From a virus (Duplodnaviria; Heunggongvirae; Uroviricota; Caudoviricetes): a DNA stretch of 51,882 nucleotides. The notes under the pieces are model-generated. The model was not told the DNA's origin, ran no database searches, and saw only the letters and a program-made list of their open reading frames with translations. The position numbers and the translations under genes are program-made. Shown here piece after piece: positions 50,450 to 51,882 of the stretch. Location: the IMG/VR virus record IMGVR_UViG_3300047393_000041, positions 64,001 through 115,882 of that record; one strand, given 5' to 3'. Within the stretch, counting starts at the first letter, position 1, and each line of letters begins with the position of its first letter.

Positions 50450-51418
50450 TTAAATAGCAGCTAGTTTTTTAGTTTTTAATTTTTGTTCTAATATCAATAA
50501 CTCATCTTGGTTATCATCATCAGCTAAGAATCTAATTAAATCATCTTCATCTTTTGCCACTTCATATTCACCTTCATAAACTTTACCATTAGGTTTAATT
50601 CTATATACTGAATGTGCTGTAGCTTGTTTAACAAGATCTCTAATGTGAAGTAAATCATCTTTCATGTTAGCAAATCTGTTAAACACTTCAACTGGATTTA
50701 AGCCTGAATATTTACCATTCTTAAATTCTGTTTGTTTTAACATGTTATCTACTTGATTGTAAACAACTTCTTCTTTTGTTTCTTCTGTTACTGGAAGACC
50801 TAAAAGTCTTGCAACTTTTTTCTTCTTATCAGGAGTCATAGAATCAAACATTACAATTGCTTTATTAATCAATTGTTTTTTCTTAAATATTACAGCATTT
50901 TCAATTTCATCATCTACAACATAAAACTGTGTGTCAGCAGGATATTCTCCTCTTTCCCAAGCTTGATGACTTGATGCAATTGTAGGGTGTACTCTCAACC
51001 ATGAAAAAGCTATTTCTTGAAAAGGAACTGATAGATCAAAGAAATTATCACCATCTAATAATTTAACTGATTGCACATGTGACTGATCATTCGTAGAAGT
51101 TGATAAACCATAGTTCCAGAATTGTGAACGAGGTCCTAAATCAATATCTCCTAAATCATATTCAAGTTTTGTCTTAAGAGCTCTAACTCTTTCAATTTCT
51201 AATTCTCTTTCTAAAGGATCTGAGATTCGTTTAATATAAGCAGCATTTTCATCTAATCCTGTTCTATACTTACCATCTAATTCTTTATACGGATACTTGA
51301 AAACTCCTGTTCCAGGGATTCTTGTCATTCCTTTTTGTGCTAGTCCACTATCCATTGTCTGAAGTTGTGAGCTATTGAATTCTCTTTTTATTGTAGAGAT
51401 TTTACCTGTCTTTGCCAT
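50450..51418 (-). CDS. Conserved crAss-like protein following the major capsid gene
   Basis: 322 aa, no catalytic motif recognised; call rests on synteny. Confidence 0.45.
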   Translation of the reverse strand: MAKTGKISTIKREFNSSQLQTMDSGLAQKGMTRIPGTGVFKYPYKELDGKYRTGLDENAAYIKRISDPLERELEIERVRALKTKLEYDLGDIDLGPRSQFWNYGLSTSTNDQSHVQSVKLLDGDNFFDLSVPFQEIAFSWLRVHPTIASSHQAWERGEYPADTQFYVVDDEIENAVIFKKKQLINKAIVMFDSMTPDKKKKVARLLGLPVTEETKEEVVYNQVDNMLKQTEFKNGKYSGLNPVEVFNRFANMKDDLLHIRDLVKQATAHSVYRIKPNGKVYEGEYEVAKDEDDLIRFLADDDNQDELLILEQKLKTKKLAAI

Positions 51419-51453
51419 AATGTAGTTTAATTAATAATGTTTGGTTTTATTAG

Positions 51454-51527
51454 TTGCGTGGGATGGATTCGAACCACCGACCTCTAGGTTATGAGCCTAG
51501 CGAGCTAACCGCTGCTACTACCACACG
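51454..51527 (-). tRNA. trnM: tRNA-Met (CAU), initiator-like
   Basis: CGTGTGG...CTAGG-CTCATAA-CCTAG-AGGTC-GGTGG-TTCGAAT-CCATC-CCACGCA-A; C1:A72 mismatch; no encoded CCA. Confidence 0.93.
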
Positions 51528-51529
51528 AG

Positions 51530-51736
51530 TTGTAGAGTGGTCCCACCGAAGGAACCTGAACATGGATACTATCCATTTCAACACTCTGTCACTTAGTTAC
51601 GTTGCTATGCAAGAGGCTTGACTAAGTATATTTGAGATCAATCCCCTCTAGGAGGGAGAGGAGGTGAGGGGATCTTTCTCGGAAATATTGAGTTACTCTG
51701 GGACGCTGTTCTTATGGATAGCGTAGTAACTACTCT
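51530..51736 (-). ncRNA. Candidate structured ncRNA (four back-to-back domains)
   Basis: Stems at 51691-97/51725-31, 51628-48/51666-88, 51591-97/51621-27, and a three-way junction 51534-51587; GC-richer than the flanks; no ORF. Confidence 0.6.
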
Positions 51737-51742
51737 TTATTT

Positions 51743-51880
51743 TTAGAATTGTGGAATTTCCTCAATCAACACAGTTCTTGACAAATCTTCAATAAATACA
51801 TCACATCTGTCTTTCATCCAGATTTCGTATCCTGGGAATTTGTTAGCACTTGACATACCTTGAGATTTAGCAAAACCTAA
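51743..51880 (-). CDS. C-terminal end of the probable major capsid protein (partial)
   Basis: Open from the window edge: LGFAKSQGMSSANKFPGYEIWMKDRCDVFIEDLSRTVLIEEIPQF*; position matches the crAss-like MCP and the sequence resembles its C-terminal strands. Confidence 0.65.
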   Translation of the reverse strand, partial: LGFAKSQGMSSANKFPGYEIWMKDRCDVFIEDLSRTVLIEEIPQF

Positions 51881-51882
51881 GT

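What the first reader, a model, noticed from the sequence alone, without database searches (positions are those of the whole stretch)
51530..51736. Four-domain RNA between capsid gene and tRNA with an anti-Shine-Dalgarno loop
Seen (- strand): H1 AGTTACT/AGTAACT with inner ACGCT/AGCGT; H2 ATATTT-GAGA-GATCCCCTC/GAGGGGATT-TCTC-AAATAT enclosing the 17-nt loop ACCTCCTCTCCCTCCTA; H3 ACTTAGT/ACTAAGT with inner TTGC/GCAA; H4 a three-way junction (AGAGTG/CACTCT, ATGGAT/ATCCAT, GGTTCC/GGGACC). The domains abut with almost no linker. TCACCTCCT (51659-51667) equals the 16S rRNA anti-SD core, and a second CCTCCT follows. Knowledge: Bacteroidota mostly lack SD sequences and occlude the anti-SD via bS21/bS18/bS6; rpsU is the SD-bearing exception in Flavobacteriales. 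Inference: RNase P cleavage at the tRNA could define the 3' end of an RNA that pairs with SD-containing mRNAs (e.g. rpsU), mimics the 16S tail, or stabilises capsid mRNA.
Basis: partly seen in the sequence, partly recalled or inferred. Interest (0 to 1): 0.78.

Follow-up and report, generated by a model that had tools for sequence, protein, structure and literature searches.

The report
Structured RNA after phage capsid gene
The 215-base spacer after the major capsid gene of this freshwater crAss-type phage encodes a real, evolutionarily conserved folded RNA, but it is a string of independent modules (two constant, the rest optional) that most likely ends, cuts and protects the very abundant capsid message rather than a single four-domain RNA built around an anti-Shine-Dalgarno loop.

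Summary
The fold beats shuffles (z -4.25), and no Rfam family other than the tRNA matches.

Across 140 distinct versions of this spacer the region is modular. H2 (a GC hairpin) and H4 (a three-way junction) are near-universal and covary strongly. H1, H3, two other hairpins, HNH ORFs and the tRNA itself are optional. H2+H4 persist in a phage whose capsid protein is only 63% identical. H4 was found only behind this capsid gene.

The CCUCC loop is strongly conserved in the window's own subclade but replaced by short unrelated loops elsewhere, so an exposed anti-SD is not the shared function. In more distant relatives the H2 position holds a classical U-tailed terminator. In three of the four versions lacking H4, a tRNA-Met sits in its place.

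Best reading (0.45): a cis-acting terminator-derived stabiliser (H2) plus a tRNA-like or tRNA processing punctuation (H4), which sets the ratio of capsid to downstream gene expression. The function is untested. Two earlier scan notes flagged the same region in sister genomes.

The parts
51743..51882 (-). [quoted passage not shown] The gene continues across the contig's 127-bp terminal repeat.
   Evidence: Pfam Crass_capsid 1.5e-28; PHROG major head protein 1.3e-32.
51691..51731 (-). H1, an optional hairpin. In 25 of 140 relatives the equivalent hairpin is followed by a run of five or more T (terminator-like). Here the T run has decayed to CAATATTT.
   Evidence: No terminator-like site is called in the window's own spacer.
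51628..51688 (-). H2, a constant module. The outer stem is GAGA/TCTC and the GC-rich inner stem is GATCCCCTC/GAGGGGATT. The 5' arm is C-rich and the 3' arm G-rich. The core spans 51680-51634.
   Evidence: Present in almost all of the 140 spacer versions. 98% paired, with 14 of 15 pairs showing double changes. The L245 relative has a canonical terminator at this place.
51649..51665 (-). 17-nt pyrimidine loop of H2, ACCTCCTCTCCCTCCTA. Together with the last two stem bases it reads TCACCTCCT (51667-51659).
   Evidence: Loop pi is 0.053 against 0.153 at four-fold sites, and positions 3-15 are almost invariant in 41 distinct sequences. The loop is not conserved outside the subclade.
51591..51627 (-). 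H3, an optional hairpin with the conserved internal loop AAGCCTC. It is present in 11 of 140 relatives. A related copy lies upstream of H2 in the distant relative L250.
51534..51587 (-). H4, a constant three-way junction. P1 is AGAGTG/CACTCT with an invariant AGA/TCT base. Hairpin A (51581-51557) is variable. Hairpin B (51556-51539) has the conserved 6-nt loop TTCRRT. The tail at 51533-51528 carries an invariant C at +2.
   Evidence: Alignment A1. Model R1 gives a single hit in the genome at 57.6 bits. Found only behind this capsid gene in IMG/VR.
51453..51527 (-). tRNA-Met (CAT), an optional module. It is present in 32 of 140 distinct spacers, usually 4-7 nt after H4.
51419..51452 (-). Leader of the next gene, with the motifs AAACCAAAC and AACTACAT directly before ATG. 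It is conserved in all relatives and recurs before three other genes of this genome.
50450..51418 (-). Downstream 322-aa gene of unknown function (PHROG 16383), followed by virion structural genes.

Best explanation
The spacer is a cis-acting, modular RNA at the boundary between the capsid message and the downstream virion genes.

H2 is a very stable GC hairpin descended from, or equivalent to, the capsid gene's terminator. It attenuates read-through and blocks 3' exonucleases, so the capsid message outlasts the distal part of the transcript.

H4 is a clade-specific three-way junction that acts as processing punctuation. Its 6-7-bp end helix stacks on a short hairpin with a TTC-containing loop and is followed by a short single-stranded tail. 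This resembles the acceptor/T-arm half of a tRNA. RNase P and/or RNase Z, or another structure-specific nuclease, would cut there exactly as at the true tRNA-Met that follows it or replaces it. The upstream capsid mRNA would then end in a protected structure, and the downstream message would start at its conserved short leader.

Shown: the structures, their strand, their conservation, their modularity, their exclusive position, and the terminator and tRNA equivalents in relatives.

Inferred: termination or attenuation, the cleavage, the enzyme, and the effect on stability. Sub-claim odds: H2 as terminator/stabiliser about 0.6; H4 as tRNA-like processing signal about 0.3.
For: 1. Position and strand. 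The element always lies directly after the capsid gene, on its sense strand (G-U 64 against A-C 11; plus-strand model scores 70-80 bits against 15-23 on the minus strand). In the crAss-like phage phi14:2 the capsid transcript is the most abundant (bioRxiv 10.1101/2020.03.07.982082, read).

2. H2 equivalents in relatives.
- L245 (capsid 81% identical) has only CTCCCCCT/AGGGGGAG plus TTTTATTT, a textbook intrinsic terminator.
- L173 has a hairpin plus ATTTTTT.
- L247 has a bare GC hairpin.
- H2 sits only about 26 nt before the next ATG in L191. That leaves no room for a promoter, so downstream genes must be read through.

3. Modules tolerate insertions between them. These are H1, H3, two other hairpins, the tRNA and HNH ORFs of about 500 nt. 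This is expected for autonomous punctuation or stability elements and not for one integrated fold.

4. H4 and the tRNA.
- H4 is present in 136 of 140 distinct spacers.
- Three of the four without it (L165, L172, L173) carry a tRNA-Met at that place, against 29 of 136 with H4 (my hypergeometric estimate is p about 0.04, ignoring relatedness).
- Where both occur, the tRNA starts 4-7 nt after H4 in 18 of 29. RNase P cleavage would therefore leave H4 with a short tail.

5. H4 geometry. P1 is 6-7 bp and hairpin B 4-6 bp with 0-2 nt between them. The loop TTCRRT and the C at +2 of the tail are invariant or nearly so.

6. RNA-library contigs of relatives join the capsid 3' end to H2, and to H4 (X1 record 4, X2 record 6, X5 record 20).
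Against: - No transcript ends were mapped. Only assembled contigs were available, and their breaks fall at different places.
- The window's own H2 has no U tract, and the scan finds no terminator in the spacer.
- H4 is not detectably a tRNA. There is no second tRNA hit at E up to 10. ARAGORN of 117 in standard mode. In its permissive mitochondrial mode it of 117 against 1 of 117 shuffled, with inconsistent anticodons.
- The hairpin B loop has 6 nt rather than 7. The A58-equivalent position is A or G, and the closing pair is not fixed.
- The invariant AGA/TCT pairs suggest sequence-specific recognition, which RNase P would not need.
- When an H1 terminator is present upstream, most capsid transcripts might never reach H2 and H4.
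- The strong conservation of the 17-nt loop in the window's subclade is not explained by a pure stabiliser role.
Confidence: 0.45

Rival explanations
1. Trans-acting RNA. The capsid 3' UTR, or a fragment released by processing at H4 or the tRNA, acts through the exposed C/U-rich loop of H2. It would work as an anti-Shine-Dalgarno / 16S 3'-tail mimic that pairs with G-rich (SD-like) sites in host mRNAs such as rpsU, or that titrates proteins binding the 16S tail (bS21, Era).
For: - TCACCTCCT is identical to the 16S 3' core.
- Loop positions 3-15 are almost invariant in 41 distinct sequences, while four-fold sites nearby have pi 0.15.
- A CUCCCUCC-type loop also occurs on an unrelated AT-rich stem in L249, and in L248, L052, L143, L155, L209 and L228.
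- The phage itself uses no SD, so it would not harm its own translation.
- The RNA would be very abundant.
Against: - Only about 21 of 49 distinct H2 variants expose CCUCC. About a quarter have TTCAGA-type loops with the C run fully paired.
- Distant relatives have GNRA loops or a plain terminator.
- Nine sequences of the window's own subclade read AACUCC at the first CCUCC.
- The 9-mer is not significant on its own, and a C/U-rich loop contains CCUCC easily.
- The host and any target are unknown, and no separate small RNA is shown.
Confidence: 0.12
2. Protein-binding regulatory platform. H4 (invariant AGA/TCT base pairs, TTCRRT loop) and the CCUC-type motifs of H2 and H3 would be operators for a phage or host RNA-binding protein. 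That protein would control translation or decay of the downstream virion genes, or chaperone the capsid message.
For: - Sequence-invariant base pairs and loop letters sit inside helices that otherwise covary.
- CCUC-like motifs recur in the H2 loop and the H3 internal loop, and a CCTACC word precedes H2 in many relatives.
- H4 is strictly tied to this one locus.
Against: - No candidate protein has been identified.
- Large insertions (a tRNA, HNH ORFs of about 500 nt) between H4 and the next start codon are tolerated, which argues against a distance-dependent translational operator.
- Four lineages do without H4.
Confidence: 0.15
3. Plain tandem terminators or attenuators only. H1 and H2 stop host RNA polymerase. 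H4 is merely a stabilising 5' cap for read-through transcripts, or a pause or antitermination structure, and no endonucleolytic processing is involved.
For: - Canonical terminators sit at this place in L245 and L173, and H1 is followed by T runs in 25 of 140 relatives.
- In run X5, contig depth is 56-88 over the capsid 3' end and H2, against 0-5 over the next gene (weak, since contigs of mixed strains cannot rank genes).
Against: - H2 lacks a U tract in most of the clade, including this window.
- H4 is separated from the downstream message whenever a tRNA follows it, so it cannot serve as that message's 5' cap there.
Confidence: 0.15
4. A new self-cleaving ribozyme, or a DNA-level signal (packaging or replication site, cruciform).
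For: Three-way junctions are common ribozyme scaffolds. The region is GC-rich in a genome of 31% GC.
Against: - H4 has no conserved unpaired junction core. The only conserved single-stranded letters are the TTCRRT loop and one C in the tail.
- No Rfam ribozyme hit.
- The excess of G-U over A-C pairs and the strand asymmetry of model scores point to RNA rather than DNA.
Confidence: 0.05

Closest known systems
Terminator/stabiliser hairpins after highly expressed phage capsid genes and intercistronic stabiliser hairpins (T7 T-phi after gene 10; T7 RNase III sites; Rhodobacter puf operon hairpins) - from established knowledge, not tested here
   Same: A very stable GC hairpin sits directly after the most abundant late gene, in the sense strand, with downstream genes depending on read-through. 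Relatives carry a canonical hairpin plus U tract at the same place.
   Different: In this window and most of the clade the U tract is missing. The hairpin has a conserved purine/pyrimidine outer stem. In one subclade it also carries a conserved 17-nt pyrimidine loop. It is always coupled to a second conserved structure (H4).
Plant mitochondrial t-elements and tRNA punctuation of mRNAs (Forner et al. 2007, PMC1920247, read); MALAT1/mascRNA 3'-end formation (own knowledge)
   Same: A tRNA or a degenerate tRNA-like fold lies next to an mRNA end. It is interchangeable in position with true tRNAs. It is proposed to be cut by RNase P/Z, with an upstream structure protecting the new 3' end.
   Different: t-elements are defined by the T-arm motif GGTTCRANYCC. 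H4 has a 6-nt TTCRRT loop and no D or anticodon arm. Cleavage is untested. No bacteriophage example is known to me.
tRNA (Rfam RF00005)
   Same: A 6-7-bp terminal helix stacks on a short hairpin with a TTC loop. A single-stranded tail follows. H4 is immediately adjacent to, or replaced by, a tRNA-Met.
   Different: Not recognised by the Rfam tRNA model or by ARAGORN. It has three helices rather than four, and the middle hairpin is variable without an anticodon loop.
16S rRNA 3' tail / anti-Shine-Dalgarno sequence
   Same: Nine identical letters, TCACCTCCT, followed by a second CCTCC, largely single-stranded.
   Different: Present only in part of the family. The first two letters are base-paired. 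No evidence of interaction. The match is not significant by itself.

Membership tests
Any Rfam family (release 15) | A covariance-model match at or near the gathering score | tested here: not met
   Only the tRNA (49.1 bits) matches. Nothing else in 51528-51742 reaches even E 10, apart from a 15.8-bit chance hit to Xist exon 4 on the other strand. The gathering scan of the whole window also finds only the tRNA.
tRNA / tRNA pseudogene (for H4) | Cloverleaf recognised by tRNA models, with a 7-nt T loop and an anticodon arm | tested here: not met
   There is no second RF00005 hit. ARAGORN of 117 in standard mode. In mitochondrial mode it of 117 against 1 of 117 shuffled, with inconsistent anticodons. 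The loop is 6 nt.
t-element (tRNA-like mRNA processing signal) | Conserved T-arm motif GGTTCRANYCC within a tRNA-like fold | tested here: not met
   Hairpin B reads SS-TTCRRT-SS, one base short, and its closing pair is variable. The motif definition comes from PMC1920247.
t-element (tRNA-like mRNA processing signal) | mRNA termini coincide with the element's ends, through cleavage by RNase P/Z | not testable with these tools
   Only assembled contigs of RNA libraries were available. They cannot show ends.
Intrinsic (Rho-independent) terminator (for H1 and H2) | A GC-rich hairpin immediately followed by a U tract | tested here: inconclusive
   Not met in this window: no site is called in the spacer, H2 is followed by TCTCAAAT and H1 by CAATATTT. 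Met at the homologous place in L245 and L173, and for H1 in 25 of 140 relatives.
Anti-SD / 16S-tail mimic | A single-stranded CCUCC conserved wherever the element occurs | tested here: not met
   CCUCC lies in the loop in about 21 of 49 distinct plus-strand H2 variants. The TTCAGA, ATCCCC and GNRA loops lack it. It is conserved only within the window's own subclade.
Self-cleaving ribozyme | A conserved unpaired catalytic core at the junction | tested here: not met
   The junction linkers are 0-2 nt and not conserved. No ribozyme family is hit.

The most novel reading that the evidence does not exclude
A phage uses a MALAT1-like or t-element-like strategy. A dedicated tRNA-mimicking three-way junction (H4) is cut by the host's tRNA-processing enzymes to create the 3' end of its most abundant mRNA. 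That end is then protected by the H2 hairpin. In one subclade, the H2 loop additionally serves as a 16S-tail / anti-SD decoy, made in very large amounts in a host that does not use Shine-Dalgarno pairing.
Probability: 0.12. Interest if true: 0.8.

Novelty: new variant of a known kind. Interest (0 to 1): 0.5.

Why it matters
The element sits behind the capsid gene of a very common freshwater crAss-type phage lineage. More than 598 IMG/VR contigs carry the capsid gene, and its protein cluster has about 3,800 member sequences. H4 and H2 are clean, covariation-supported RNA motifs that are absent from Rfam. They could be added as new families and used to mark this lineage.

If the processing model holds, it would be a bacterial-virus example of tRNA-like punctuation of mRNAs. 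It would also show how phages set capsid-to-minor-protein ratios in hosts that lack Shine-Dalgarno-led translation.

The modular gain and loss of hairpins, tRNA and homing-endonuclease ORFs at one spacer is a tidy natural experiment on what each module is needed for.

Tried and rejected
1. Close phage isolates. Nucleotide search of INPHARED found only tRNA matches. Protein search found one cyanophage at 26% identity. There is therefore no annotated relative, and the host is not established.

2. Second copies in the genome. The weak 38-nt match at genome 8329-8365 is coding sequence. None of the modules is repeated elsewhere in the genome or in the relatives' flanks, so these are not dispersed mobile hairpins.

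3. Metatranscriptomes.
- The broader run search listed only small shares. The narrow one mostly listed small-share runs of unrelated organisms and samples; I took these for tRNA words and did not lay them.
- All runs were held as contigs.
- Laying X1, X2, X3 and X5 showed relatives' capsid 3' end joined to H2 and H4.
- One contig ends on an Illumina adapter inside H4 hairpin A (about 51561-51563).
- Contig breaks between H4/tRNA and the leader fall at different places in X1 and X2.
- X5 depth is higher over the capsid gene and H2 than downstream.
- None of this can show RNA ends or rank genes. I treat it as inconclusive.

4. MAFFT plus RNAalifold on H2 (A2) failed, finding 3 pairs, because loop lengths differ. 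I replaced it with a model-based alignment.

5. My automatic H2 finder was noisy and is not used for counts.

6. H4 in prokaryote genomes. The pattern scan gave 3 hits in unrelated MAGs, with no capsid gene nearby and different folds. These are chance.

7. Pseudoknot or kissing between the H2 loop and H4 hairpin B. The loop is invariant while hairpin B varies, so there is no covariation. In L249 a 9-nt complement of the loop lies downstream, but this does not generalise.

8. An intramolecular triple helix in H2 was considered on paper. The short-loop subclade cannot form it, so I rejected it.

9. A small ORF through H4 was rejected because hairpin A varies in length by non-multiples of three.

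10. A sigma-70-type promoter in the spacer: none above chance.

11. Relatives cannot be drawn for a virus record.

Full report
**What is there**

On the minus strand of the window, an ORF open at the window end stops at 51745-51743. A 215-nt non-coding stretch follows (51742-51528). Next come a tRNA-Met(CAT) at 51527-51453, a 34-nt leader and a 322-aa gene.

The window is the last 51.9 kb of a 115,882-bp IMG/VR virus record. Its 127-bp terminal repeat lies inside that ORF. Read around the repeat, the ORF is a 520-aa crAss-type major capsid protein.

The strand-specific fold is far better than shuffles: z is -4.25, against -2.2 for the other strand. Rfam finds nothing but the tRNA.

**Relatives**

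The capsid protein has one isolate hit, a cyanophage at 26% identity. It has more than 598 matches in IMG/VR and a large metagenomic protein cluster.

I collected 240 loci with both flanking genes, which gave 140 distinct spacers of 120-797 nt, median 190. The capsid protein is 94-98% identical across the first two sets of loci, collected with queries from within the clade. In contrast, the spacer is a mosaic of blocks.

**Modularity**

- H2 and H4 occur in the same order in nearly every spacer.
- H1 is optional. A terminator-like form with five or more T occurs in 25 of 140.
- H3 occurs in 11 of 140.
- Two further hairpins occur in 11 and 5 of 140.
- Spacers longer than 450 nt, which in the cases I read carry a small inserted ORF (HNH-like in L163), number 12 of 140.
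- The tRNA-Met occurs in 32 of 140.
- None of the modules is repeated elsewhere in the genome.

**H4**

- A MAFFT alignment of 56 diverse copies gives a three-way junction of 20 pairs, 17 of them with compensatory double changes.
- 93.6% of cells are paired, against 36-52% when partners are slid. The covariation score is 0.607 against 0.18 in shuffles.
- G-U cells outnumber A-C cells 64 to 11, so the structure is RNA of the capsid-sense strand.
- The AGA/TCT pairs at the base of P1, the TTC of the hairpin B loop and the C two bases after P1 are invariant; the loop's last T is nearly so.
- A covariance model finds one copy in the genome.
In 113 the capsid C-terminus lies within 900 nt upstream on the same strand. 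The other six lie at contig ends.
- The same pattern gave three chance hits in 596 Gb of prokaryote genomes.
- H2, H4 and an H3-like hairpin are still present in L250, whose capsid protein is 63% identical. There P1 has become AGAATG/CATTCT and hairpin B CCAC/GTGG.

**H2**

A model-based alignment gives 98% paired cells and double changes in 14 of 15 pairs. The inner stem takes many forms:
- TCCCCTC/GAGGGGA
- CCCCCAC/GTGGGGG
- GCCCTCC/GGAGGGC
- CCCCTAGC/GCTAGGGG
- GGGTTC/GAACCC

The loop differs by lineage. In the window's subclade it is the 17-mer. In 41 distinct sequences, positions 3-15 are almost invariant and loop pi is 0.053. Four-fold sites in the last 300 nt of the capsid gene have pi 0.153. 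Elsewhere the loops are UCCCACC-type, or only 5-8 nt long (TTCAGA, ATCCCC, CTCCC). CCUCC is exposed in about 21 of 49 distinct plus-strand variants.

Further out:
- L245 has a textbook terminator at this place.
- L173 has a GNRA hairpin plus a T run.
- L247 has a bare hairpin with the arms swapped.
- L249 keeps a CUCCCUCCUC loop on an unrelated stem.
- L253 (50% identity) has nothing.

**H4 and tRNA**

H4 is present in 136 of 140 distinct spacers. Of the four without it, three (L165, L172, L173) have a tRNA-Met right after the hairpin, and one (L191) has H2 alone. Among spacers with H4, 29 also have the tRNA, usually 4-7 nt downstream.

H4 is not a tRNA by any detector, and its T-like loop is one base short of the t-element motif.

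**Transcript evidence**

Only assembled contigs of lake and freshwater RNA libraries were available. They join the capsid 3' end to H2 and H4 in relatives. Otherwise they give inconsistent break points, one adapter junction inside H4, and, in one run, higher depth over the capsid gene and H2 than downstream. I do not count this as evidence for ends or levels.

**Host and Shine-Dalgarno**

The phage's own starts lack SD words and sit in A-rich, G-poor leaders. A conserved AAACCAA...AACTACAT leader recurs. This fits an SD-independent host but does not name it.

**Reading**

The constant features are:
- a very stable hairpin directly after the most abundant late gene, with terminator equivalents in relatives;
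- a second autonomous structure, interchangeable in position with a tRNA;
- tolerance of insertions between modules;
- dependence of downstream genes on read-through.

These features point to a cis-acting boundary element that ends, cuts and protects the capsid message. Known parallels are terminator and stabiliser hairpins in phage and operon mRNAs, and tRNA or t-element punctuation (PMC1920247). In phi14:2 the capsid transcript is the most abundant, and late genes are read by host polymerase.

The anti-SD idea survives only as a subclade-specific add-on. The loop is clearly under selection there, but neither a target nor a released RNA is known.

**Verdict**

H2 and H4 are new, well-supported RNA motifs of unknown, probably mRNA-processing or stability, function. 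Two earlier first-reader notes in this scan (e1-5447292, e1-1731805) flagged the same spacer in sister genomes. My comparative data agree with their 'processing/attenuation platform' suggestion.

Noticed in passing
genome G000:C1:19666-20070 (+), outside the window (locus L373:367-771): The phage encodes a full-length tmRNA. Rfam RF00023 scores 81.4 bits against a gathering score of 47 (E 4e-30), and ARAGORN also calls it. The tag peptide that ARAGORN proposes looks too long and needs checking.
   Followed up: partly
window 51419-51452 (-); also genome positions ~2878, ~8215 and ~63573 (- strand): The leader motif AAACCAA(A/C)...AACTACAT(T)ATG recurs before four genes of this genome. It is conserved in all relatives. 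Inserted HNH ORFs start with the same AACTACATATG context. A similar AACTACAG precedes H4 in many relatives. It may be an SD-independent initiation signal.
   Followed up: partly
whole genome (136 predicted ORFs): The genes have essentially no Shine-Dalgarno sequences: 4 of 136 starts against 9% of random 17-mers. The region -20 to -4 is 53% A and 6.5% G. The genome is 31% GC. This fits an SD-independent host such as Bacteroidota, but the host is not identified.
   Followed up: yes
loci L026, L035, L048, L049, L163, L167, L220 (spacer between H4/tRNA and the next gene): Twelve of 140 spacer versions exceed 450 nt. In the loci I read, a small ORF lies between H4/tRNA and the leader. In L163 it reads like an HNH homing endonuclease (my reading of the sequence; not checked against a family). 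This makes the spacer an insertion hot spot.
   Followed up: no
loci L057, L058, L076 (about 190-620 nt after the capsid stop): The tRNA-Met appears to be interrupted right after the anticodon loop (CTCATAA) by an insertion of about 430-470 nt that begins with an ORF. ARAGORN then calls only a downstream 'tRNA-Thr' or tRNA-Met. This may be an intron in the tRNA.
   Followed up: no
locus L249:2755-2895: In this relative (capsid 83% identical) the H2 stem is AT-rich and unrelated, yet the loop keeps CUCCCUCCUC. A 9-nt perfect complement of the loop (AGGGAGCAG) lies about 25 nt downstream. This suggests an alternative pairing or a pseudoknot there.
   Followed up: partly
genome ends (positions 1-127 = 115756-115882): The record's 127-bp direct terminal repeat falls inside the capsid gene. 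It is therefore a circular-assembly overlap, not a physical genome end.
   Followed up: yes
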